Source: a virus | Lineage: Duplodnaviria > Caudoviricetes | DNA: 38,623 bases | Virus record (IMG/VR): IMGVR_UViG_3300033407_000061 | Location: 1-38,623 of that record | Strand: one strand, 5' to 3' | Shown: in pieces, positions 1-38,623 of the stretch | How positions within the stretch are numbered: the stretch's first letter is position 1 | Layout: each line of letters begins with the position of its first letter | Translations under genes and position numbers: made by a program | The notes under the pieces: generated by a model | The model's input: the letters and a program-made list of their open reading frames with translations, nothing else | Databases searched by the model: none | What the model was told of the DNA's origin: nothing

Positions 1-115
1 CAGGCCACAGTCAATTGGCCACCGCAAGGTAGGAGCGTCAACTATGAGACGTCTCTGAATGTATCGACTCATGTGTCAGATACAAGCCTACAGCCTTGTG
101 CTGTGGGTCATTGAC
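1..115 (+). mobile_element. Right half of 297-bp IS200/IS605-type non-autonomous element (MITE-A), cut by the window start
   Basis: Identical to the reverse complement of 32136-32250; ends CAAG-CCTACAGC CTTGT GCTGTGGG-TCATTGAC (right-end hairpin and TGAC cleavage motif). Confidence 0.85.
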
Positions 116-205
116 TGTCATCCCCGCAAATTCAGGGATCTTAACAGAGAAGAAAGCAACCACGTTGCTGTCTCCGCATAGTGCTCTATAGCGAGTGATT
201 TCCAT
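116..205 (-). pseudogene. N-terminal fragment of a small phage protein (SpoVG-like, tentative) interrupted by MITE-A
   Basis: AGGAG RBS, then MEITRYRALCGDSNVVAFFSVKIPEFAGMT runs straight into the element end; a probable C-terminal part lies at 38415-38497. Confidence 0.5.
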
Positions 206-1145: not shown

Positions 1146-2831
1146 ATGGCCATCACAACAAGTAGTGTCCTACCAGCACCGGTTAAAGCTTGAATTGAGC
1201 CGGTATAAAACTTGAGGTGATTACTTGGGAAGCCTAAACATAAATCCTAGCCTATGCTATACGGTTATAGATACAGCATAGGAGGAAATATGCAGGGTAA
1301 CCAGAGGCAAACGCTTCTAGCATATGCAGCAGGTATTTTAGACGCAGATGGATGCTTCATGATAAGCAAACACAAAAGAAAGACAAAGACAAATAGGAAA
1401 TATTCCAATGTGGAAAAACTTTCCCCTACATATATGCCAACAGTGAAAGTGGCTATGGTAGAGTCTGAAGCAATCGATTTGTTGATCCATGAGTTAGGAT
1501 ACGGTAAGCATAATTTAGAAGGCGCTCGGAAAAGTAGACCGAATAATAAGCCGATTTACCATTGGTATCTTCGTGGGGCAAAAAAGGTGCTCCCATTTCT
1601 CGAGGAAGTCACTCCTTATTTGAGAGTGAAGACAAAAAGGTCAAACTTCCTTAAGAAATATTGTGAACGAATGGTAAATGTTAAAAATGTCGGCTTTAGA
1701 GGTCTAACTGATCACGAGCTAGATTATCGAGAGGACTCTTATATAAAAATGAGGGAGCTCAATGGTAATAAAGTAGCCGCAACGACTAAGTCCTCGAGAC
1801 CCGAGAGGGTAAGCGATAGTCTAATCTCATAGGAAACTATGAGAGGGAAGGTTGAAGCGCCATCCCCGCCGCCGTAAGGTGGTCAGTAGGCCCTAACTAG
1901 GCCGAAAGTAATAGATAGTCAACAGAGTTTTAGCTTTAAGCTACTGTCCGTACCAGTGCCGTATATGATCCACAAGATTCCTGCGATGCTTAAGCAAATG
2001 CCAAGGAATGGCGGAACAGATTTACGAATGCGTAGGTACAATCCTCTTGCGACTGCTACAGTCCCATTAGGCAATTCCGGGATTTACCCCCCAGCACAAA
2101 CCCTCTCAGCGATTGACATCGATGCCAAGATGGATTTCTACGGCACTTATGTTGTACTCAACGAACAGGTTACCCTACAAAACCAGGACCCTGTATTAAA
2201 CGAAGCTGCCAAGCGACTTGGTGTATCACTAAGACAGACCGAAGACGAACTAACCAGAAACATGCTGGCAGCTACGGCTTCCTTCATCAACTGCGTGGGC
2301 GGTACCAACGGTGACAACCCAACTGAAATAGCCCGGTCAGACATTGACGAGGTCATCAAGACGCTTGCCACTGCCAACGGTGCAACTATCTCCGATTCAA
2401 TTGATGGGGAAGATAAGTTCGGTTCATCTCCTATTCGCGATGCTTACTTTGTCATGGCGTCGACTCAACTTATTGGAGATTTGGAGAATGTCACAGGCTT
2501 TATTGCCAAGTCTCAGTATCCAAACCAAGATAAGGTGCTTCGGCCAGAATGGTGCTCGATTTCCAACACTCGTTGGCTTTTGAGTTCTATCGGATCTTCT
2601 AATGCTAATGCTTCCCTCAATGGTGCAACCGTTTTCAACTGCTTCGTAGCAGCGATGGAAGCGTACGCATGTATCGAGCAGGATGATTATAGCGCTCAGT
2701 TTATCTATCGCCCACCTATCTATGATGGACCGCTAGCTTTGAACGCCTCTGTTGGATACAAATTCGCAGAAGTACCACGCATCACCAACGATGCTTGGAT
2801 TATCAACCTAAGATGCACCCTATCAGTATAA
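1146..2831 (+). CDS. Major capsid protein, N4-gp56 family; spliced join(1146..1183,1919..2831), 316 aa
   Basis: AAGGAG RBS; exon 1 MAITTSSVLPAP(V) joins in frame to QQSFSFKLLSVPVPYMIHKIP...MPRNGG..LRMRRYNPL, typical of this capsid family. Confidence 0.9.
1184..1918 (+). ncRNA. Group I self-splicing intron (735 nt) in the major capsid gene
   Basis: Exon ACCGGU pairs with internal guide GCCGGU, giving a U.G wobble at the 5' splice site; terminal G1918; P7 GACTA/TAGTC (about 1784 and 1817); removal restores the reading frame. Confidence 0.9.
1290..1832 (+). CDS. Intron-encoded LAGLIDADG homing endonuclease (single motif)
   Basis: LAYAAGILDADGCF motif; GGAGG RBS before ATG 1290 (ORF track starts at 1254). 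Confidence 0.88.
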   Translation: MQGNQRQTLLAYAAGILDADGCFMISKHKRKTKTNRKYSNVEKLSPTYMPTVKVAMVESEAIDLLIHELGYGKHNLEGARKSRPNNKPIYHWYLRGAKKVLPFLEEVTPYLRVKTKRSNFLKKYCERMVNVKNVGFRGLTDHELDYREDSYIKMRELNGNKVAATTKSSRPERVSDSLIS

Positions 2832-4747: not shown

Positions 4748-4823
4748 AGTCATGATTAAATTTATATTGATAATCTGCTTGATAGTCGTTTCGTATTTTA
4801 CATTTTCAACTTTTAACTTGCTA

Positions 4824-4930
4824 ACCAAATATCCCTAGCACAAGGCTAGTGGTTTAATGAAGACGAAAAAACCTTTAAGGAGCGGGAATTCCCCCGGCGG
4901 TACAAGACCGGCGGTACCCTTCCCGTCAAT
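4824..4930 (-). mobile_element. MITE-B copy (about 110-bp IS200/IS605-like element)
   Basis: CCCTAGCACAAGGCTAG hairpin...TTTAAGGAGCGGGAATTCCCC...TTCCCG; abuts ACAA-TG (TTGT on the minus strand). Confidence 0.75.
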
Positions 4931-4933
4931 ACA

Positions 4934-6970: not shown

Positions 6971-7600
6971 ATGACATACGACCCGGACAAACCTCAGCCA
7001 AAAGATATATTGTCAGTCAGCCAAGCCGACTTACTAGAGAATTTTCAACAGCTGAATACGCAGTTTTCAGTAAATCATGTCGCGTTGGACGATACGACAG
7101 GTGATGCCGGAAAGCACAAATTTGTAACGCTAGTGGAGCAAAGTACTGTTCCAACGACCAAAGCAGATGAGTATCTCCTATTCTCACAGGATGATGGAGG
7201 AACACCAGAGATTTACGCTAGGCCAGAGTCCAACGGGACAGCATATCAATTAACTAAAGCGGGGGCATTATATTCGGGATTGATTCCTGTTGTAGCAGTC
7301 AATTTTGATGTTAATGGAACACCACAAGGAAGCTCTCTCAACGTGGCAAGCATAGCCAGGCCAGGTGCATCAGGCAGATATGTGATTACCTTTACAAACG
7401 CATTGCCGGACGCGAACTACTTTTGGAGTGTGAGTGGATTTGACAATTCGTCTAACCCGGTAATATCTCAGGTTACTAACAATAGCACCTATTCCACAGT
7501 GGTGACAGCCTCGACGATCTCATTCGATTTCAAGAATCAAAACAGCACATTGATAACAGCATTGACAAGAGCAAGCGTTATCTGCTGGAGGATCCAATAG
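6971..7600 (+). CDS. Putative virion protein
   Basis: 209 aa; C-terminal GRYVITFTNALPDANY beta-domain seen in tail-associated proteins. Confidence 0.6.
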   Translation: MTYDPDKPQPKDILSVSQADLLENFQQLNTQFSVNHVALDDTTGDAGKHKFVTLVEQSTVPTTKADEYLLFSQDDGGTPEIYARPESNGTAYQLTKAGALYSGLIPVVAVNFDVNGTPQGSSLNVASIARPGASGRYVITFTNALPDANYFWSVSGFDNSSNPVISQVTNNSTYSTVVTASTISFDFKNQNSTLITALTRASVICWRIQ

Positions 7601-7642
7601 TGAGTACGAACAAAACTTTAAGGAGCGGGAATTCCCGTAAAT
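7600..7642 (-). mobile_element. Internally deleted MITE-B copy
   Basis: GTACGAACAAAACTTTAAGGAGCGGGAATTCCCG, then ATAATG of the 910-aa gene. Confidence 0.7.
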
Positions 7643-7645
7643 ATA

Positions 7646-14991: not shown

Positions 14992-16473
14992 ATGGGTATT
15001 GAAAGAGATGGACAAGATCCGCAGGGATACGTCGGAATTAGTCCAATTAAAAATCCAAGTACAGTAGTAGCCAAACGAGCACCAGGATCAGGAGATCGCC
15101 GATATAAGATCGGTACACCCTGGATAGATAGAACTGCCGCCTCAGTATATTTCCTTACAGATGTAGCAGCAGGAGCAGCGAATTGGGCAATTGCAGCTCC
15201 AGGAGCGTCAGACGTTGACACCCTGACGGGTGACACTGGGGGGCCATTGAGTCCCACTGCCGGAAACATGAATATCCTTGGTGGCACGAACATGGCTGTC
15301 GCAGGGGCTGGTTCAACTTTGACCTTGAATGTTGATTCAGCAAGCACGTTTGCAACGTCTGTAACATCTCCTTCAATCGTTGGTACAACATCCGTTACGT
15401 CTCCAATTTACACCACCGCGGCAGCTGACACAAACATCAATTCAGCAGCGGGTCAGGACATTATCTTGCAGATGGGTGATGCGGCAGCAGCCAACAAGAT
15501 TTCGTTCGAAGATGTAGCTAGCGTTGAAGTTGCTAGTCTTGATTCAGATGGAGCACTGACAGTCGTTAGCATGGATGGTGTGATTGGTTCGGTTACACCT
15601 GCAGCCGGAACGTTCACTACTCTTACAGGTACAACCATTGATGGTGTGATTGGTTCGGTTACACCTGCAGCAGCGACGTTTACTACAGCAGTCGCAACAA
15701 CAAGTTTAAGCTCGCCTATTTGGACAAGCACCGGCGCAATGGCACTCAACATGCCAGCAGGTGCTTTTGATCTCACAGTTAAACTAGCCGATGCAGCGGG
15801 AGCACAGAAACTAAGCATCACAGACTCAGCTTCATCAGAGATTGCTAGTCTTGATTCTGATGGACAGTTGAATTTACTTGCTGGTGATGCTGTTATTACC
15901 CGGTCGTCTGCTTCTGCTGATGTTACGGTACAAGTAACAAACTCCGACAACACAGCTGCCGACTCCGATGCTTTCTTCGAAGCAGCTGTTGGTGGAACTA
16001 GTGGTGGCAACGCTGGTATTCGCTTCCAGATCTCTGGTGGTCAGAACTACTCAATGGGAATTGACAACGCAGACAGCGACAAGCTCGTTATCTGTGCTGA
16101 CAACGACCTCGGGACTGACGTACTAGTGAAAATGGACGAAACAACAAAGGATTTCGAAGTCTTCCAAGGTAACCTTGTAATCGGTGCGGTTGCTAAGCAG
16201 CTACAAATGAATGGTGGTGCGGTAACCGATTTCATCGGACAGGCCACTCTATCAAGCGGTGTCGCTACTGTTTTAAACACAAATATTGCAGCAGGCGACA
16301 GGGTGTTTTTGACTCGATCATCTACAAATAGTTCAACTGGATTAGGAGAACTAGTGGTTACAATCAACGCCTCAACTAGCTTTGTGATTACATCAGTAGA
16401 TGTAGCGGATGGTTCAACAACTATCACAGCAGATACGTCTATTGTTGATTATTTCATCGTAAGACAGAACTAG
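14992..16473 (+). CDS. Tail fibre/spike protein 1
   Basis: Thr/Ala/Gly/Ser-rich beta protein with repeats IGSVTPAAGTFTT; AGGAG RBS. Confidence 0.7.
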   Translation: MGIERDGQDPQGYVGISPIKNPSTVVAKRAPGSGDRRYKIGTPWIDRTAASVYFLTDVAAGAANWAIAAPGASDVDTLTGDTGGPLSPTAGNMNILGGTNMAVAGAGSTLTLNVDSASTFATSVTSPSIVGTTSVTSPIYTTAAADTNINSAAGQDIILQMGDAAAANKISFEDVASVEVASLDSDGALTVVSMDGVIGSVTPAAGTFTTLTGTTIDGVIGSVTPAAATFTTAVATTSLSSPIWTSTGAMALNMPAGAFDLTVKLADAAGAQKLSITDSASSEIASLDSDGQLNLLAGDAVITRSSASADVTVQVTNSDNTAADSDAFFEAAVGGTSGGNAGIRFQISGGQNYSMGIDNADSDKLVICADNDLGTDVLVKMDETTKDFEVFQGNLVIGAVAKQLQMNGGAVTDFIGQATLSSGVATVLNTNIAAGDRVFLTRSSTNSSTGLGELVVTINASTSFVITSVDVADGSTTITADTSIVDYFIVRQN

Positions 16474-16565
16474 TCAAATACCCCTAGCACAAGGCTAGGG
16501 GTATTGTGAATACGAGCAAAACTTTAAGGAGCGGGAATTCCCCCGGCGGTACCCTTCCCGACAAC
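16473..16565 (-). mobile_element. MITE-B copy at a gene junction
   Basis: GTCAAATACCCCTAGCACAAGGCTAGGGGTATTG...TTCCCGACAAC followed by ATAATG; excision leaves TAATAATG. Confidence 0.8.
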
Positions 16566-16568
16566 ATA

Positions 16569-16904
16569 ATGGCATCAACCAACAAAATAGAACCGAACGT
16601 AAGACACACTTTCAACAGTGCTAGCCTGACAGGATCCTACCAGAGCATGAGTGCTGGTGGGTTTTCCTTCGATTTAGCTGTCTATAAGGCCTACAACGGT
16701 GGAACGACAGACGTAGACGTCTCATATGATGGTGTAAACGATCACGATTTCATACCTGCTGGTGGAACATTTATATTAGATATTCAATCTAACAAGGAAG
16801 GCGATAAGGCAGCATGGCCAAAAGGAAGACAAACATTTCTTAAGGGTACAGCTGGAACGGGAACAATCTACGAAACAGGCTATTCCATCAAGAGGGCGCA
16901 ATGA
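16569..16904 (+). CDS. Small virion protein (hypothetical)
   Basis: MASTNKIEP...; the ORF-track start at 16506 lies inside MITE-B. Confidence 0.6.
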   Translation: MASTNKIEPNVRHTFNSASLTGSYQSMSAGGFSFDLAVYKAYNGGTTDVDVSYDGVNDHDFIPAGGTFILDIQSNKEGDKAAWPKGRQTFLKGTAGTGTIYETGYSIKRAQ

Positions 16905-24132: not shown

Positions 24133-24165
24133 TAACCCCCTGGCTTTAGCCAGGGGGTGGTTTAC
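24133..24165 (+). repeat. Solo IS200/IS605 right-end-like hairpin (third family)
   Basis: CCCCCTGGC-TTTA-GCCAGGGGG-TGGTTTAC perfect hairpin adjoining the stop codon of the Gly-rich ORF. Confidence 0.5.
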
Positions 24166-24411
24166 TTAATAGCCCGCGATATTGCTGTCGGCATCGGCCG
24201 CGCCCTCGCCGTTGCCATCGCCTGCGCCAGAGCTGCAGCCTTTGCCGCCGCCAGAGCCGTTTCCTGAGCCGTAGCCGTAGCCGAAGCCGTAGCCGAAGCC
24301 GTAGCCGAAGCCACAGCCGTTTCCTGAGCCGAAGCCGTAGCCGAAGCCATTTTCGGAGACGTCGCCCGCGCCAGAGCCGTAGTCGAAGCCATCTCCATCA
24401 AGATTAAGCAT
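24166..24411 (-). CDS. Gly-rich repeat protein (GxG repeats), 81 aa
   Basis: MLNLDGDGFDYGSGAGD...GYGFGYG; its start overlaps the end of the DUF6948-like gene. Confidence 0.6.
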   Translation of the reverse strand: MLNLDGDGFDYGSGAGDVSENGFGYGFGSGNGCGFGYGFGYGFGYGYGSGNGSGGGKGCSSGAGDGNGEGAADADSNIAGY

Positions 24412-24724
24412 TTTCTTCGCCCCACGCACTCCAGATTGGAATGCCCTCAATCGAGAGGCGGGCTTGATCCGAACACGGAATAATCTCAGTTGCCTCCGTA
24501 AGCGTGATTTCGCTAACGGCGCATGGGACCTTACACTTCTCAGGGTATCGGACACCTCGAACAGAAAGTTCGTTTAGTGTTGTCGCTCCATTCCAATACC
24601 AGATTCTGCGAGCATTTCTAAGCACAACTTCTTTGTTGTCGCGAGACAACAAATAGCCTGCATGTACTCCTGCGGAATATGTGCGAACAACTACGTATGT
24701 TAGATCTTCGAAAGTCATTTTCAT
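24404..24724 (-). CDS. DUF6948-like phage protein
   Basis: YVVVRTYSAGVHAG...LRNARRIWYWNGATTLNELSVRG...EIIPCS; AAGGAG RBS. Confidence 0.75.
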   Translation of the reverse strand: MKMTFEDLTYVVVRTYSAGVHAGYLLSRDNKEVVLRNARRIWYWNGATTLNELSVRGVRYPEKCKVPCAVSEITLTEATEIIPCSDQARLSIEGIPIWSAWGEENA

Positions 24725-24736
24725 TTCTCCTTTTTT

Positions 24737-24818
24737 GGGCTTCCCCGTTGGTTGTGGCATTATTATGCCAGATTCCAACATTATCCACAATGCATTTCTT
24801 CTGTGAAAAATAAAAAAT
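24737..24818 (-). promoter_or_regulatory. Putative leftward early promoter/leader, duplicated at 33241-33320
   Basis: About 80-bp imperfect repeat; on the minus strand TTCACA...GATAAT, upstream of an RBS in both copies. Confidence 0.5.
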
Positions 24819-29331: not shown

Positions 29332-29790
29332 ATGACAGCTAAAAACAAAGCAGGAAAGCCAGCAGCCAAGTCTGGAAATAGCACTGGGAACCCACCAGCA
29401 ACAGGCAGACCATACAAAGTATTAGATGCAGAATTATTTGAAAGGCTCTGTTTTAGTATCTGCACATACTCAGAAATAGAAGCCATGATGAAAGCGGATA
29501 TGTCTACACTTCAAGAATGGTGTAAGCGTACATGGGGAAAAACTTTTTCTGAGAAATATAAAGAATTTTCTGAAGGTGGCAAGGCTTCACTAAGAAGGAC
29601 GCAGCTGAGACTAGCACAAAAGAATGCCGCGATGGCCATCTGGTGTGGTAAGCAGTACCTGGGGCAGCACGACAACGACAAGGGCCAAGGCGACGCAATT
29701 AGCCAAGCAGCACAAGCACTTATAGGAGCAGCAAACTTGTTGTCACAAGGAGATGTAGTTGAAGAACCCCCTCAGCCAGAAGCAGATTGA
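29332..29790 (+). CDS. terS: Terminase small subunit
   Basis: TGRP motif, HTH, GKASLRRTQ...AMAIWCGKQYLGQ; overlaps the TerL start. Confidence 0.8.
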   Translation: MTAKNKAGKPAAKSGNSTGNPPATGRPYKVLDAELFERLCFSICTYSEIEAMMKADMSTLQEWCKRTWGKTFSEKYKEFSEGGKASLRRTQLRLAQKNAAMAIWCGKQYLGQHDNDKGQGDAISQAAQALIGAANLLSQGDVVEEPPQPEAD

Positions 29791-32029
29791 ATCCTATAGA
29801 GCTCCTAATGCCAGACTAAATATGTGGGAGGGTAGCGTCCGTTCAGGAAAGACTTTTATTTCCATTATTCGTTTCATGAAGGCTATACAGGACGGTCCTC
29901 CTGGAATAGCAATGATAATAGGTGTTTCAAGGGACTCTATTCAAAGGAACATATTAACGGAGCTATGTGCGCTTGTCGGTGCGCCTTGTCCTACGCCTAA
30001 GGCTGGACAAATAACACTCCTGGGTAGAACGATCTTCCTTGTTGGTGCAAACGATGAGCGAGCACAACGAAGAATACAAGGCTCTACGCTAGCTCTGGCC
30101 TACGTTGATGAGATGACCCTCATTCCTCAGGGATTCTTTAAGATGCTCCTGTCCCGTCTCTCGGTCAATGGTGCGATGCTCTTTGGAACCACAAACCCCG
30201 ATAGCCCATTTCACTGGCTGAAGACAGACTTCCTCTCGAAGATAGACCTAGACATGCAAGTACATCACTTCCAGCTAGAAGATAATCCATCCCTAAGTGA
30301 AGCGTATGTCAACAACCTAAAAAAAGAATATACAGGCCTTTGGTATAAGAGGTACATCAACGGAGAGTGGGTACTAGCGGAAGGAACGGTATACGACTTC
30401 TTTGATGAGCAAAACCACGTCATTGATCTGCCCCCAGGTCAAGCAGAGTATTACATCATTGGGGTAGACTACGGAACCGCAAACCCTACAACTTTTAGTT
30501 TAATAGGGTATAGTAAGAAACTATGGCCTAATATTTGGCTAGAAAGAGAGTACTACTTTGATAGTAAGAAGAAAGGCCATCAAAAGACGGACACCGATTA
30601 CGTTGAAGACCTAATCAAGTTCATTGGTGAAAAAGTAGTACGTTGTATTTACGTAGATCCTTCCGCAGCCTCCTTCAAATTGGAGATGATGCGACAGGGG
30701 CTAGGAGGTGTGATCGATGCGGATAACGATGTCATCAACGGTATACGGTTCCAGAGTAAGCTCCTCTCGAACGGTACGTACAAGATTTGTCGCTGCTGCT
30801 CTAATGCTATACGAGAATACCAGACGTACAGATGGGATGAGAAAGCCTCACTCAAAGGGGAAGACAAGCCAATTAAAGAGCATGACCACTGCTTTGTAGC
30901 CGGTACTCCGGTTATAACGGAATACGGAGAAATTCCGATTGAGAGAATTGAAGTAGGTAATAAGGTTCTCACCCGTTCGGGTTGGAATCAGGTAGAAGAG
31001 ACATTCAAGCACGAAGCGGAAGTGTCAGAGTTTGAAGTTCTGGGACAGAAAATAACATGTACACCGTCACACAAATTTCTCACTGGCCAAGGTTGGAAAC
31101 AGATTAGCAATATGATAAACTCCGATATTCTATTTACAGAAGTTGGGGAATTACCATGGTTGAAGACATCGAATTTGAGGGAAGAAAATACCGGCGTTAT
31201 CCAGAAGCTAAAAGACGTTCTCAAAGGGTGTATTTTAAATGTGGATACGGAAGTAGATTGCTTCATAGAGACATTTGGGAGCACTACAATGGAAAAATTC
31301 CCAAAGGAAGCCATATTCATCACAAGGACAACGATCCCCTCAACAATGACATTAGCAATCTCGAATGTCTATCACGTTCTAAACACCTTTCCTATCATGC
31401 GAACAGCCTTACGGAAAGCCAAAAAGCAGATAGAGATGAAAGATGGTTATCGTATCAAAAACGAGCCGCAGAATGGCACGGAAGCAAAGAAGGGAGGAAA
31501 TGGCACTCTGATCACGCAAATGAAATGTGGAGTAAAAGAGAGCCTATCACACATTCCTGCGAAAAATGTGGAAAGGCTTACCAGTCCATCAAATCAGGAC
31601 TCACTCGATTTTGTTCAAATAACTGTAAGTCACAAGCAAGACGAGATAGCAACGTTGATCGTGAGAAAAGATATTGTTCTTTCTGTGGACTGGAGTTCGA
31701 AGCAGATAAGTACAGTCGAACAAGATTTTGCTCAAAGTCCTGTTCTTGCAAATCCTCTTGGGAAAAGAGAAATTTACAATATACATGTGCAGAATGAACA
31801 CGAATACTTTGTACATAAGTGCCTAACACACAATTGCTTGGACTCGCAGAGGTACGGGCTCTATACGCACTTTCGCGGCGTGCTTAACAACGAGTCTGCA
31901 AGCGCAGACATGGATAAGATCTATGCAGATGTCGTTGGATTAAAGACAGACCTACCCGATTTTTTCCAAGTTAATCAGTACAATCAGCATCCTGTTCCAC
32001 AGGGAGCCCCATCGGGATTTTACGGGTGA
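29759..32029 (+). CDS. terL: Terminase large subunit, PBSX family, containing an intein
   Basis: Walker A GSVRSGKT, Walker B YVDE, TTNP, GVDYG, DPSA; DH/CLDSQRY nuclease motif split by the intein. Confidence 0.95.
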   Translation: MKNPLSQKQIESYRAPNARLNMWEGSVRSGKTFISIIRFMKAIQDGPPGIAMIIGVSRDSIQRNILTELCALVGAPCPTPKAGQITLLGRTIFLVGANDERAQRRIQGSTLALAYVDEMTLIPQGFFKMLLSRLSVNGAMLFGTTNPDSPFHWLKTDFLSKIDLDMQVHHFQLEDNPSLSEAYVNNLKKEYTGLWYKRYINGEWVLAEGTVYDFFDEQNHVIDLPPGQAEYYIIGVDYGTANPTTFSLIGYSKKLWPNIWLEREYYFDSKKKGHQKTDTDYVEDLIKFIGEKVVRCIYVDPSAASFKLEMMRQGLGGVIDADNDVINGIRFQSKLLSNGTYKICRCCSNAIREYQTYRWDEKASLKGEDKPIKEHDHCFVAGTPVITEYGEIPIERIEVGNKVLTRSGWNQVEETFKHEAEVSEFEVLGQKITCTPSHKFLTGQGWKQISNMINSDILFTEVGELPWLKTSNLREENTGVIQKLKDVLKGCILNVDTEVDCFIETFGSTTMEKFPKEAIFITRTTIPSTMTLAISNVYHVLNTFPIMRTALRKAKKQIEMKDGYRIKNEPQNGTEAKKGGNGTLITQMKCGVKESLSHIPAKNVERLTSPSNQDSLDFVQITVSHKQDEIATLIVRKDIVLSVDWSSKQISTVEQDFAQSPVLANPLGKREIYNIHVQNEHEYFVHKCLTHNCLDSQRYGLYTHFRGVLNNESASADMDKIYADVVGLKTDLPDFFQVNQYNQHPVPQGAPSGFYG
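30890..31834 (+). other. Intein (315 aa; TerL residues 378-692)
   Basis: Block A CFVAGTPV, block B CTPSHKF, blocks F/G IYNIHVQNEHEYF...THN followed by C; spliced TerL is 441 aa. Confidence 0.92.
31156..31797 (+). CDS. HNH homing endonuclease with C-terminal Zn-finger repeats, overprinted inside the intein in a different frame
   Basis: LHRDIW...IHHKDNDPLNNDISNLECL...H, plus CxxC...FCSxxC twice; offset +2 from the TerL frame; GGGGA upstream of the ATG. Confidence 0.88.
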   Translation: MVEDIEFEGRKYRRYPEAKRRSQRVYFKCGYGSRLLHRDIWEHYNGKIPKGSHIHHKDNDPLNNDISNLECLSRSKHLSYHANSLTESQKADRDERWLSYQKRAAEWHGSKEGRKWHSDHANEMWSKREPITHSCEKCGKAYQSIKSGLTRFCSNNCKSQARRDSNVDREKRYCSFCGLEFEADKYSRTRFCSKSCSCKSSWEKRNLQYTCAE

Positions 32030-32072
32030 TAGTTAATCCCTAGTCCCTGTTTGGGGTATACTCTCTATTCTT

Positions 32073-32552
32073 TCACGGTCCCTTAGTTCGTATGAACGGT
32101 GCCTGAAAGCTGCCCTGCCGGATCTCAAGCCCAAGGTCAATGACCCACAGCACAAGGCTGTAGGCTTGTATCTGACACATGAGTCGATACATTCAGAGAC
32201 GTCTCATAGTTGACGCTCCTACCTTGCGGTGGCCAATTGACTGTGGCCTGCTCTACAGACGCTATACGCAGTAGAGAGATGCCCACTACTGTGGGAATAC
32301 CCGAATTATCGGGAACAACTCGTCTTAGGCTTTCCGCTTTCCCATATTGGGATGCCAGCCTCGGAGTTGAAGAGAAATTACAGCACGATTCATCCTTTAG
32401 CACAATGCTAAAGGTTTTCTCGTGTCAATTTCATAATTGGCGACACGGTTTAGATCGATCGGCGGCACCACAGTCTCCTGGCCGTACACCTCCAACAAAA
32501 GGTCCCATGTCACGCATTCAATTTTTTCGATCTGCTCTTTAGCAAGACCCAT
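32073..32552 (-). pseudogene. Truncated ImmA/IrrE-like metallopeptidase N-terminus interrupted by MITE-A
   Basis: Precise removal of 32136-32432 gives MGLAKEQIEK...VVPPIDLNRVANY-LGLEIRQGSF...; no HExxH remains. Confidence 0.55.
32136..32432 (-). mobile_element. Full MITE-A (297 bp)
   Basis: On the minus strand TTAT, then GAAATTGACACGAG-AAAA-hairpin ... CAAG-hairpin-TTGAC; no target duplication. Confidence 0.9.
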
Positions 32553-32573
32553 ACGATTCCTCGTGTCAATTTC
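32553..32573 (-). mobile_element. MITE-A left-end remnant with the hairpin deleted
   Basis: TTAT, then GAAATTGACACGAG-GAATCGT; the hairpin between the two parts is missing. Confidence 0.6.
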
Positions 32574-32608
32574 ATAAGCCTTGGGGATAAGCCTTGGGGA
32601 TAAGCCTT
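32574..32608 (+). repeat. 13-bp tandem repeat ATAAGCCTTGGGG (about 2.7 copies)
   Basis: Copies at 32574, 32587 and 32600, adjoining the left-end remnant. Confidence 0.7.
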
Positions 32609-32671
32609 ACGAATGTAAGAAATATTTTCAGCCAAAAACTTTTTCGGAGAATTATAAAGAATTTTCTGATT

Positions 32672-32769
32672 GCCACCGCAAGGTAGGAGCGTCAACTATG
32701 AGACGTCTCTGAATGTATCGACTCATGTGTCAGATACAAGCCTACAGCCTTGTGCTGTGGGCCATTGAC
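32672..32769 (+). mobile_element. MITE-A right-end fragment (98 bp)
   Basis: Matches 18-115 except one base; ends CATTGAC. Confidence 0.85.
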
Positions 32770-32856
32770 TTAAAATCTAAAACTTTTTTTGTTTTCTTCG
32801 AATGCTTTAATAGCCAGCTCTTTTGCATCTTGCCGAACATCTTCGCTAGTTCCATA

Positions 32857-33153
32857 GTCAATGACCCACAGCACAAGGCTGTAGGCTTGTATCTGACACA
32901 TGAGTCGATACATTCAGAGACGTCTCATAGTTGACGCTCCTACCTTGCGGTGGCCAATTGACTGTGGCCTGCTCTACAGACGCTATACGCAGTAGAGAGA
33001 TGCCCACTACTGTGGGAATACCCGAATTATCGGGAACAACTCGTCTTAGGCTTTCCGCTTTCCCATATTGGGATGCCAGCCTCGGAGTTGAAGAGAAATT
33101 ACAGCACGATTCATCCTTTAGCACAAGGCTAAAGGTTTTCTCGTGTCAATTTC
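32857..33153 (-). mobile_element. Full MITE-A (297 bp)
   Basis: Near-identical to 32136-32432 (left-end loop CACAAGGC vs CACAATGC); TTAT target; interrupts a small minus-strand ORF starting at 33224. Confidence 0.9.
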
Positions 33154-33388
33154 ATAAATTCATTATCCTTATTAACAAAACCATCTTCATATATGTAAAT
33201 TGTACGATATTCTCTGCTTTTCATTTTTCGCTCCATTTGTGGGCTTCCCCGTTTGTTATGCCATCATTATGCCAGATTCCAACATTACCCACAATGCTTT
33301 TGTTGTGAAAAATGAAAAATCTGAGAAATCTAAATAAAATATATAATTATTTTAAGTAATCTAGTATGATGTAAGCAACCAGGAGAAT

Positions 33389-33465
33389 TTAATGAATACG
33401 AACAAAACTTTAAGGAGCGGGAATTCCCCCACCGGTACAAGACCGGCGGTACCCTTCCCGACAAC
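33389..33465 (-). mobile_element. MITE-B copy (right-end hairpin lost) in front of the portal gene
   Basis: TGAATACGAACAAAACTTTAAGGAGCGGGAATTCCCCCACCGGTACAAGACCGG...GACAAC followed by ATAATG. Confidence 0.8.
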
Positions 33466-33468
33466 ATA

Positions 33469-35817: not shown

Positions 35818-35832
35818 AAGTTCCTCTATTAT

Positions 35833-35906
35833 GTTGTCGGGAAGGGTACCGCCGGTCTTGTACCGCCGGGGGAATTCCCGCTCCTTAAAGTTTTGCTCGT
35901 ATTCAC
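35833..35906 (+). mobile_element. MITE-B copy, opposite orientation
   Basis: TTAT, then GTTGTCGGGAAGGGTACCGCCGGTCTTGTACC...CTCCTTAAAGTTTTGCTCGTATTCAC. Confidence 0.8.
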
Positions 35907-36034
35907 CAAAACACCTCGTTTTAGTATGCTTCTCGGCAAGACACTCGCCTAGCGAGAAACTGTTGTGGCACACTTTGTGTGAACCTGCGTTAAGTCGTAG
36001 GATGTAGAGCGTGTATCGCTAAATTGTTTCCCTG

Positions 36035-37211: not shown

Positions 37212-37326
37212 ATGAAAGAAAAAAGTATAGACCTAACATACGTAATCATCCGCACATATTCCGCAGGAGTACATGCTTGAGGGCATTCCAGTCTGGAGTG
37301 CTTGGGACTCCGAAGAAAATGCTTAA
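37212..37326 (+). pseudogene. Internally deleted second copy of the DUF6948-like gene
   Basis: DLTYVIIRTYSAGVHA joined out of frame to EGIPVWSAW..EENA, both matching 24404-24724. Confidence 0.75.
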
Positions 37327-37615
37327 TCTTGACGGCGACGGCTCAGGCGACGGCTCAGGCGACGGCGACGGCTCCGGCTCCGGCTACAGCACAGGATATA
37401 GCACAGGATATAGCGTAGGCTACGGCGACGGCCACAGCAACGGCGCAGGCGATCTTCCGGGCTCTGGCTCTGGCTCTGGCTACGGCAATAGCGCGGGCGA
37501 CGGCTTCGGCGATGGCTATGGCGCGGGAGACGGAAACGGCTTCGGCTACAGCGCGGGCGACGGCGATGGCAACGGCTTAAACTACGGTGGTCAAATACTC
37601 CTAGGACAAGGCTAG
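37319..37615 (+). CDS. Gly-rich repeat protein, array unit 1
   Basis: MLNLDGDGSG...; C-terminal QILLGQG and the stop are supplied by MITE-B. Confidence 0.55.
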   Translation: MLNLDGDGSGDGSGDGDGSGSGYSTGYSTGYSVGYGDGHSNGAGDLPGSGSGSGYGNSAGDGFGDGYGAGDGNGFGYSAGDGDGNGLNYGGQILLGQG

Positions 37616-37699
37616 TGGTTTAGTAAAGACGAACAAAACTTTAAGGAGCGGGAATTCCCCCACCGGTACAAGACCGGTGGCAACACTCTTCCCGACAAC
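37590..37699 (-). mobile_element. Full MITE-B (110 bp)
   Basis: GTCAAATACTCC...GACAAC followed by ATAATG. Confidence 0.8.
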
Positions 37700-37702
37700 A
37701 TA

Positions 37703-37951
37703 ATGCTTAATTTTGACGGCTGCGACTATGGCTCTGGATACGGATCCGGCGACGGCTCCGGCTGCGTCTCTGGCTCTGGCTCCGGCGACAGCAACAGCAA
37801 CGGCTACGGCTACGGCTCGGGCGATGGCTATGGCGATGGCTCTGGCGATCTCCCGGGCTCTGGCGACGGCTCCGGCTCTGGCTCTGGCTCTGGCTCCGGC
37901 TCCGGCTCTGGATACGGCTACGGCTCCGGCTCTGGCTCTGGCTCTGGCTAA
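37703..37951 (+). CDS. Gly-rich repeat protein, array unit 2
   Basis: MLNFDGCDYGSG...; early TAA where the repeat pattern predicts TAC. Confidence 0.5.
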   Translation: MLNFDGCDYGSGYGSGDGSGCVSGSGSGDSNSNGYGYGSGDGYGDGSGDLPGSGDGSGSGSGSGSGSGSGYGYGSGSGSGSG

Positions 37952-37961
37952 GGCTCCGGCA

Positions 37962-38071
37962 ATCAAATACTCCTAGCACAAGGCTAGGGGTATTGTGAAG
38001 ACGAACAAAACTTTAAGGAGCGGGAATTCCCCCACCGGTACAAGACCGGTGGCAACATTCTTCCCGACAAC
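37962..38071 (-). mobile_element. Full MITE-B (110 bp)
   Basis: ATCAAATACTCCTAGCACAAGGCTAGGGG...GACAAC followed by ATAATG. Confidence 0.8.
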
Positions 38072-38074
38072 ATA

Positions 38075-38377
38075 ATGCTTAATTTTGACGGATACGGCTC
38101 CGGCTCACGCTACGGCTCTGGCTACGGCTACGGCTACGGCGACGGCGACGGCTCTGGAGACGGCTACGACTACGGCTCTGGCTCCGGCTCCGGCTCTGGA
38201 TACGGCTACGGCTCTGGAAACGGCTCTGGCTACGCCGACAACAACGGCTCCGGCTCACGCTACGGCTCTGGCTACGGCTCGGGCGATCTCCCGGGCTCGG
38301 GCGCTGGCGAAGACGACGGCGACGGATACGGCTTCGGCTCCGGCGACGGCAATCAAATACTCCTAACACAAGGCTAA
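38075..38377 (+). CDS. Gly-rich repeat protein, array unit 3
   Basis: MLNFDGYGSG...NQILLTQG. Confidence 0.55.
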   Translation: MLNFDGYGSGSRYGSGYGYGYGDGDGSGDGYDYGSGSGSGSGYGYGSGNGSGYADNNGSGSRYGSGYGSGDLPGSGAGEDDGDGYGFGSGDGNQILLTQG

Positions 38378-38401
38378 AGCCTTGTGCTGTGGGTCATTGA
38401 C
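38352..38401. mobile_element. Chimeric MITE-B end fused back-to-back with a MITE-A right end
   Basis: ATCAAATACTCCTAACACAAGGCT-A-AAGCCTTGTGCTGTGGGTCATTGAC. Confidence 0.65.
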
Positions 38402-38414
38402 CCTGTACTGGTTC

Positions 38415-38497
38415 TTACGGCTGTGGATTGTTCTTTTGAACATACTCTTCAAGCGCCTTCATCACACCATTTTGGAATCTTTTTAAGATTTCTTTGT
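38415..38497 (-). pseudogene. Probable C-terminal fragment of the gene starting at 205
   Basis: KEILKRFQNGVMKALEEYVQKNNPQP* flanks the other side of the same MITE-A. Confidence 0.45.
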
Positions 38498-38623
38498 GAA
38501 ATTGACACGAGAAAACCTTTAGCATTGTGCTAAAGGATGAATCGTGCTGTAATTTCTCTTCAACTCCGAGGCTGGCATCCCAATATGGGAAAGCGGAAAG
38601 CCTAAGACGAGTTGTTCCCGATA
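38498..38623 (+). mobile_element. Left half of MITE-A, cut by the window end
   Basis: TTGT, then GAAATTGACACGAGAAAACC...; with 1-115 it covers 241 of 297 nt. Confidence 0.85.

What the first reader, a model, noticed from the sequence alone, without database searches (positions are those of the whole stretch)
32136..33153. MITE-A: protein-less IS200/IS605 element with a TnpB-reRNA-like right end, each copy with a different guide flank
Seen: three near-identical 297-bp copies (32136, 32857 and one across the window ends) and right-end fragments ending at 32769 and 38401. Established (IS608 guide rule): the tetranucleotide at the hairpin foot specifies the cut site. Left-end AAAA predicts TTNT (observed TTAT, TTAT, TTGT) and right-end CAAG predicts TGNC (observed TGAC). 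The right ~120 nt are structured (GTCAAC-TATGA pairs with TCA-TTGAC) and encode QATVNWP, which recalls TnpB C-termini. No TnpA or TnpB is encoded in the window. Inference: the copies could be stand-alone guide-RNA cassettes with five different 3' flanks (TGTCATCCCC, CTTGGGCTTG, TATGGAACTA, TTAAAATCTA, CCTGTACTGG) that program a host TnpB in trans against element-free alleles. An IscB omega-RNA on the opposite strand is an alternative reading.
Basis: partly seen in the sequence, partly recalled or inferred. Interest (0 to 1): 0.72.

Follow-up and report, generated by a model that had tools for sequence, protein, structure and literature searches.

The report
Gene-less TnpB guide-RNA mini-transposon in phage
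A small phage carries several copies of a 297-base jumping element that has lost its protein genes but keeps the predicted guide-RNA scaffold of the DNA-cutting enzyme TnpB, so a TnpB made elsewhere in the cell would likely keep each copy from being lost; elements of this kind are already described.

Summary
The element is real and the TnpB reading is right. Two full 297-bp copies differ at one base. The last 41 codons on the minus strand match the C-terminus of intact TnpB proteins (38/41). The kept part covers the clade's predicted omegaRNA scaffold, including a covarying hairpin and pseudoknot. HEARO/IscB does not match (control). Parent-type 3' ends and element variants share two public runs. 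Corrections: the 'third copy' is two half-copies with 56 nt missing, and 112 nt of the phage gene between them is absent, so they are probably two insertions. The two right-end fragments lack the pseudoknot loop, leaving three candidate guides, not five. No empty allele or guide target was found, and transcription is not shown. This is a PATE-type protein-less IS200/IS605 element carrying an omegaRNA, a described kind, here in a 38.6-kb phage of unknown, possibly chlamydial, host.

The parts
32136..32432 (-). MITE-A copy 1, 297 bp (top strand of the element = window minus strand)
32857..33153 (-). MITE-A copy 2, 297 bp, one base different from copy 1 (left hairpin loop)
38498..38623 (+). Left half of a MITE-A copy, cut by the contig end; TTGT at 38494-38497
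1..115 (+). Right half of a MITE-A copy, cut by the contig start; holds the pseudoknot hairpin and right end; probably a different insertion from the left half
32136..32278 (-). Predicted omegaRNA (reRNA) scaffold of copy 1, about 143 nt; same at 32857-32999 in copy 2
   Evidence: profile built from 10 tnpB loci without the element matches model positions 6-116, 43.5 bits, E 1.2e-12
32137..32262 (-). Remnant of the tnpB 3' end: last 41 codons and the stop codon, which lies inside the terminal TTGAC
   Evidence: 38/41 identical to P0123
32231..32248 (-). Conserved hairpin whose loop (GTCAAT, -106 to -101) is predicted to pair with the last six bases of the element (pseudoknot)
32251..32276 (-). 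5' hairpin of the scaffold; one compensatory pair change in element variants of two runs
32144..32168 (-). Right-end subterminal hairpin (32144-32164) with guide tetranucleotide CAAG (32165-32168)
   Evidence: sequence
32394..32418 (-). Left-end subterminal hairpin (32394-32414) with guide tetranucleotide AAAA (32415-32418)
32280..32393 (-). Interior between left end and scaffold: an ATG-started stretch that recalls a TnpB N-terminus (not tested) and three short hairpins, one with compensatory changes
32433..32436 (-). TTAT left cleavage site and predicted TAM of copy 1 (copy 2: 33154-33157)
32120..32135 (-). Predicted 16-nt guide of copy 1
   Evidence: guide length by analogy with PMC8612924
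32841..32856 (-). Predicted 16-nt guide of copy 2
116..131 (+). Predicted 16-nt guide of the copy at the contig start
32672..32769 (+). Right-end fragment, 98 nt, without the pseudoknot loop; unlikely to be a guide cassette
38368..38401 (+). 34-nt right-end hairpin fused to a half hairpin of the second repeat family (MITE-B)
32560..32573 (-). Left-end relic without its hairpin, preceded by TTAT (32574-32577)
32433..32552 (-). 5' part (40 codons) of a reading frame interrupted by copy 1; it continues in frame for 20 codons at 32073-32135 when the element is left out
   Evidence: no family found

Best explanation
MITE-A is a protein-less internal-deletion derivative of an IS200/IS605-family tnpB element that keeps both transposon ends and the predicted omegaRNA scaffold, and it is likely moved by a host TnpA and likely protected by a host TnpB acting in trans. 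Shown: the two ends, fixed junctions without target duplication, the tnpB C-terminal remnant, the match to the clade's scaffold, different flanks at different sites, and parent-type 3' ends in the same runs as element variants. Inferred steps: (1) a Y1 transposase from the host excises and inserts the top strand after TTAT; (2) read-through transcription from phage promoters crosses the right end, since no promoter was found inside the element; (3) a parent-clade TnpB trims the RNA 5' end and uses about 16 nt of flank as guide; (4) it cuts TTAT+flank, which exists only where the element has been excised or never was, and repair from a filled genome restores the copy. The main beneficiary is the element, not the phage.
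For: TnpB descent: 2 hits of 74 candidates, both PF01385+PF07282, 90% and 83%; P0121 residues 346-392, E 1.3e-19; 38/41 to P0123. Active clade: RuvC D172, E252 invariant in 125 of 125 aligned proteins and D333 in 124; NCBIfam guided_TnpB 178 bits, cut-off 100. Scaffold: independent profile match starts at 32278, where TnpB homology also ends (32280). Hairpin plus pseudoknot: 97.9% of 143 cells paired, 5 of 11 pairs with two-sided change, 0/500 shuffles reach the covariation score, slid controls 21-47% paired. ISDra2 pairs its last bases with -103 to -105 (PMC10097598, passages); here -101 to -106. Element variants keep short stems by compensatory changes (32254/32273 in X5 and X7; 32342/32350 in X2 and X5; 32344/32348 in X5). 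One X2 contig has 0 substitutions in 99 scaffold bases and 11 in 147 other bases (Fisher p = 0.004, one contig). Mobility: an identical 289-nt stretch with a different flank in another study (X3); TTAT at 6 of 7 left junctions seen. Co-occurrence: X5 holds a 1741-nt contig whose loose end reads as tnpB coding sequence (13x) and element variants (39x); X7 holds both types too.
Against: No stranded RNA evidence. The one RNA run (X11) gave a single 239-nt contig of the parent type, not of the element, and may be DNA. No sigma-70-like promoter inside the element; 3 in the 1.5-kb region against 2.9 by chance. No joint skipping the element in 8 runs (contigs drop rare variants). The covarying stems also occur in intact TnpB genes (QATVNWP in P0176, P0179), so they may be inherited rather than selected in the element. 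One X5 variant breaks the 32344/32348 pair, and the long-range pairs predicted at the left end are broken in four of six variants. The parent's DNA, its left end and its TnpA were never seen whole; the parent-type contigs were read only through 30-base loose ends. The pair counts come from a structure I chose on related sequences, so they are not probabilities.
Confidence: 0.7

Rival explanations
1. Passive hitchhiker: the element is moved by TnpA but makes no working guide. The scaffold is kept only because the deletion was recent or because single-strand DNA structure helps transposition.
For: No promoter found; no element-type RNA contig; hairpins outside the scaffold also show compensatory change; no empty allele seen.
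Against: TnpB homology stops at the 5' hairpin of the scaffold; variants diverge by about 5% outside the scaffold while one contig has none inside. TnpB can trim longer RNAs, so no own promoter is needed (PMC10278001, passages).
Confidence: 0.2
2. The phage has domesticated the cassettes to aim host TnpB at competing phages or at a host gene.
For: Several copies in one 38.6-kb phage that also carries two homing-type endonucleases. Copy 1 lies in a reading frame with no match in 11 related phage loci, so its guide could point at a foreign gene.
Against: The contig-end copies break a gene that is intact in three relatives. Best TT.T+seed matches in 81,096 bases of related phage loci have 3-4 mismatches in 12. 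No hit in 8 related viral records, and six relatives have a short terminase-portal gap instead of this 1439-nt island.
Confidence: 0.07
3. The opposite strand is an IscB omegaRNA (HEARO) with the guide 5' of GTCAA.
For: An iscB element (L015) shares 29 of the first 33 bases.
Against: L015 scores 128 bits on HEARO; the window has no HEARO match at E <= 1. Similarity to L015 stops after the transposase hairpin, which a tnpB-like element (L011) also carries. The interior is tnpB-derived.
Confidence: 0.03

Closest known systems
PATEs (palindrome-associated transposable elements) of IS200/IS605, e.g. the protein-less elements of Geobacillus stearothermophilus (Meers et al., 10.1101/2023.03.14.532601; passages read)
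   Same: No protein gene, both subterminal hairpins, fixed TAM and TEM; the paper says PATEs often encode omegaRNAs that TnpB from other elements must use in trans.
   Different: Here in a phage genome, from a TnpB clade whose nearest named members are chlamydial and cyanobacterial; activity untested.
Stand-alone omegaRNAs of OMEGA systems (as summarised in PMC10691335; passages read)
   Same: Mobilised guide loci without effector or transposase, each with its own flank.
   Different: Those were shown to work in trans; this one has not been tested, and its effector is not on the same replicon.
ISDra2 reRNA/omegaRNA (PMC8612924, PMC10097598; passages read)
   Same: Scaffold overlaps the tnpB 3' end, guide is the flank, predicted pseudoknot at nearly the same distance from the end, TAM expected to equal the insertion target.
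   Different: Predicted TAM TTAT rather than TTGAT; in this parent the coding frame runs through the whole scaffold to a stop inside the terminal TTGAC; scaffold about 143 nt against 116 nt.
IS608 end recognition (PMC3201880; passages read)
   Same: A four-base guide 5' of each hairpin foot specifies the cleavage site; AAAA/TTAT differs from IS608's AAAG/TTAC only at position 4.
   Different: One left junction reads TTGT. The exact cross-pairing register and the IS608 right guide are recalled, not read.

Membership tests
IS200/IS605 PATE | Subterminal imperfect hairpins at both ends | tested here: met
   32394-32414 and 32144-32164
IS200/IS605 PATE | Fixed target 5' of the left end and no target duplication | tested here: met
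   TTAT at 6 of 7 left junctions seen, TTGT once; flanks differ; leaving out copy 1 restores an open frame
IS200/IS605 PATE | No transposase or nuclease gene inside | tested here: met
   297 bp
IS200/IS605 PATE | Ends shared with an autonomous or tnpB-carrying element | tested here: inconclusive
   Right end met at protein level and in run contigs; the parent's left end and TnpA were not obtained
IS200/IS605 PATE | Mobilised in trans by TnpA | not testable with these tools
   Indirect only: identical element at different sites
TnpB omegaRNA (reRNA) | Derives from the tnpB 3' end and right end | tested here: met
TnpB omegaRNA (reRNA) | Pseudoknot between an upstream loop and the last scaffold bases | tested here: met
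   By covariation only; element 5/5 stem and 6/6 pseudoknot pairs
TnpB omegaRNA (reRNA) | Transcribed and processed to scaffold plus about 16-nt guide | tested here: inconclusive
   One unstranded RNA contig, of the parent type
TnpB omegaRNA (reRNA) | Directs TAM-dependent cleavage | not testable with these tools
   Needs a bench assay
IscB omegaRNA (HEARO) | Match to Rfam RF02033 | tested here: not met
   None in the window at E <= 1; positive control L015 128 bits. One search had no ringing control and adds nothing.
IscB omegaRNA (HEARO) | iscB gene or remnant downstream | tested here: inconclusive
   PF14239 no match, but no control rang; the interior is accounted for by tnpB

The most novel reading that the evidence does not exclude
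The phage uses these cassettes as an effector-free RNA-guided weapon. Phage transcription makes three or four guides that load the host's TnpB and cut element-free alleles in co-infecting sister phages (marker exclusion). Copy 1 sits in a captured foreign reading frame, so its guide would aim the host's own nuclease at the intact original of that gene in the host or in a resident element.
Probability: 0.1. Interest if true: 0.7.

Novelty: new member of a known kind. Interest (0 to 1): 0.3.

Why it matters
It gives a clean test case for whether gene-less IS200/IS605 elements on a phage are maintained by a host TnpB in trans. It also supplies an uncharacterised TnpB clade (about 390 aa, intact RuvC) with a predicted TTAT TAM and a naturally trimmed scaffold. 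If the guides act in mixed infections, phages could gain RNA-guided homing without encoding any nuclease. As it stands it is one more example of a described kind.

Tried and rejected
IscB/HEARO reading: my first guess from the GTCAA start; dropped. DNA pattern scans of viral contigs gave only chance hits in unrelated coding sequence (5 loci; 18/22: 1; 34/40: 4) or nothing (14, 92). Genome scan: 2 Corynebacterium loci, unrelated beyond the hairpin. Metagenome scan: 13 loci; 4 were the window's own contig, L015 an iscB element, L011 a tnpB-like element (by eye, not scanned against a family library), and the other 7 looked like chance or terminator-like hairpins; part of that output was cut. blastn against phages and plasmids: nothing meaningful. 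phmmer of the 88-aa frame against 50% representatives: 4 hits in long multi-stretch proteins at 33-38% identity, none TnpB-sized; taken as spurious, not followed up. Direct search for the parent in viral contigs: 0 of 179 candidates; closest plasmid and phage TnpBs are 42% or less. No chlamydial genome could be searched. Host not established: portal relatives carry no organism names and the best annotated phage portals are 23-25% identical. The frame split by copy 1 recalls the N-terminus of ImmA/IrrE-type proteins from memory; four searches did not confirm it. Copy 2's flanks do not give one convincing frame. No TAM+seed self-target in the window. In one search I used the second of two possible ends for L055, which scored 4/6 pseudoknot pairs; the nearer end would pair 6/6; L055 is not. 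Depth in X1 (95 inside the element, 27 in the phage) fits three or four copies but is not a copy number.

Full report
Setting. The window is the whole held record, a 38,623-base virus contig classed as linear. It encodes a P22-like portal, a terminase with an intein and an HNH nuclease, a capsid gene with a weak group I intron match, RecT and YqaJ. The host is not established. The parent TnpB clade's nearest named member is chlamydial (P0308, in the cluster of P0172, 68% to P0121), followed by cyanobacterial proteins at 59-64%.

The observation. Two 297-bp copies lie at 32136-32432 and 32857-33153 and differ at one base. Right-end fragments end at 32769 and 38401, and a hairpin-less left-end relic lies at 32560-32573. 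On the element's top strand the left junctions read TTAT, TTAT, TTGT and TTAT (relic); three more left junctions in other contigs run through TTAT (X1 and X2, X5). TTAT makes up 0.35% of positions in the window. The right end is TTGAC with different flanks in X2, X3, X5, X7 and X11. IS608 uses a four-base guide at the foot of each hairpin (PMC3201880, passages: AAAG guide, TTAC and TCAA sites); AAAA with TTAT fits it. The full pairing register is recalled.

The third copy is not established as one copy. The contig begins and ends inside the element and 56 nt are missing. Both halves lie in one small leftward gene; in three related phages 38 codons separate the matching points, in the window 2 nt. 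Two insertions 112 nt apart, either unassembled or later recombined, explain this best (inference). X1 also shows a joint from a right end into the second repeat family that the window lacks.

Which strand. The end motif alone cannot decide: an iscB element (L015, 29/33 identical) and a tnpB-like element (L011) carry the same hairpin type. The protein search decides. The 88-codon minus-strand frame hit 2 of 74 candidates, both TnpB; the last 41 codons are 38/41 identical to P0123 and the stop codon lies in the terminal TTGAC. The clade keeps its RuvC residues in 124-125 of 125 aligned proteins. HEARO scores 128 bits on L015 and nothing in the window.

The scaffold. Seventeen viral loci encode more distant TnpB relatives (33-61%). 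A sequence profile from 10 of them, without the element, matches 32136-32278 and 32857-32999 over model positions 6-116 (43.5 bits); tblastn homology to P0121 ends at 32280. So the element keeps the clade's conserved region from its 5' hairpin to the end. In 12 of the 17 loci plus the element, a 5-bp hairpin and a 6-bp loop-to-end pairing hold in 97.9% of 143 cells, with two-sided changes at 5 of 11 pairs; a motif-anchored count on 16 loci plus the element gave 85/85 and 97/102. The loop lies at -106 to -101, close to the -103 to -105 pseudoknot partner of ISDra2 (PMC10097598, passages). The two fragments lack the loop, so three flanks, not five, are candidate guides. Element variants in other runs show compensatory changes in two short stems, but one variant breaks one of these pairs, and the long-range pairs near the left end are not kept. 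The stem variant of the element also occurs in two intact TnpBs, so it may be inherited.

Partners in trans. The contig has no TnpA or TnpB. Runs X5 and X7 each hold element-type contigs and parent-type contigs whose loose ends read as tnpB coding sequence; the X5 one is 1741 nt long. This shows co-occurrence in a sample, not in a cell. X3 holds a 289-nt identical stretch with a different flank, which points to recent movement.

Mechanism. By the published model TnpA excises the top strand, leaving TAM plus flank, and TnpB guided by the flank cuts that joint so that repair restores the element (PMC8612924; 10.1101/2023.03.14.532601; passages). TnpB trims the 5' end of longer RNAs (PMC10278001, passages), so read-through could supply the guide. 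Copies 1 and 2 lie downstream of an 89-nt duplicate (83%) of the region in front of the phage's leftward genes, and the contig-end copy is on the strand of the structural genes. No promoter was found in the element. The only RNA run gave one unstranded parent-type contig over the right end and 54 nt of flank: a hint at most. All these steps are inferred.

Against a benefit to the phage. A conserved gene is broken. No element match was found in 8 related or control records (seven phage records and one plasmid). Six relatives have a short terminase-portal gap where the window has a 1439-nt patchwork. No guide has a TT.T-flanked seed match better than 3 mismatches in 12 in 81,096 bases of related phage loci, and no element-free joint appeared in 8 runs.

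What is known. Protein-less PATEs that often encode omegaRNAs, and stand-alone omegaRNAs shown to act in trans, are described (10.1101/2023.03.14.532601 and PMC10691335, passages). Homing against co-infecting phages is listed as an expected mode in a review (PMC13565253, passages). I read passages only, no supplements; extended data of the preprint may hold closer examples. Searches for a report of this family found none: Chlamydiae+phage+TnpB gave 2 unrelated listings, IS605+MITE+TnpB+guide gave 0, and searches listed none on it by title or abstract start. Earlier notes of this scan describe several like elements in other phages; they are unchecked and not evidence, but they suggest the setting is common.

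Verdict. Real, correctly read as TnpB-derived, with three corrections. New member of a known kind; interest 0.3.

Noticed in passing
window 4823-4933, 7597-7645, 16473-16570, 33388-33468, 35828-35914 (-), 37589-37702, 37961-38074: A second repeat family (MITE-B, seven copies, some truncated) with a related hairpin at one end and TTAT on the opposite strand at the other in five copies; six copies end directly at an ATG, including those of the portal and the 910-aa tail gene. Its hairpin end resembles that of the tnpB-like element L011 (28/31).
   Followed up: partly
window 1254-1843: Weak group I intron match (26.8 bits, E 0.006) overlapping an ORF that looks like a LAGLIDADG endonuclease by eye (no Pfam hit), just upstream of the capsid ORF.
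   Followed up: no
window 29759-32029 and 31156-31797: Terminase with an intein, and an HNH endonuclease ORF in another frame inside it.
   Followed up: no
window 32030-33468: 1439-nt island between terminase and portal, short in six relatives: holds a duplicate of 36 nt of the ORF at 29332-29790 (32634-32669), a duplicate of the region at 24727-24815, a short tandem repeat at about 32574-32610, and a reading frame of unknown origin.
   Followed up: partly
window 37277-38377 and 24162-24555: Three tandem Gly/Ser/Asp/Tyr-rich ORFs separated by MITE-B copies, with an inverted relative at 24.2-24.4 kb next to a DUF6948 gene.
   Followed up: no
L015 (whole locus): Complete iscB element with a HEARO RNA (128 bits) whose two end hairpins carry the same GCACAAGGC core as MITE-A, so one TnpA type may move both iscB and tnpB elements.
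   Followed up: partly
window 32174 onward, run X5: A related subfamily swaps the hairpin next to the right end while keeping its pairs (loose end in three contigs; read by eye).
   Followed up: partly
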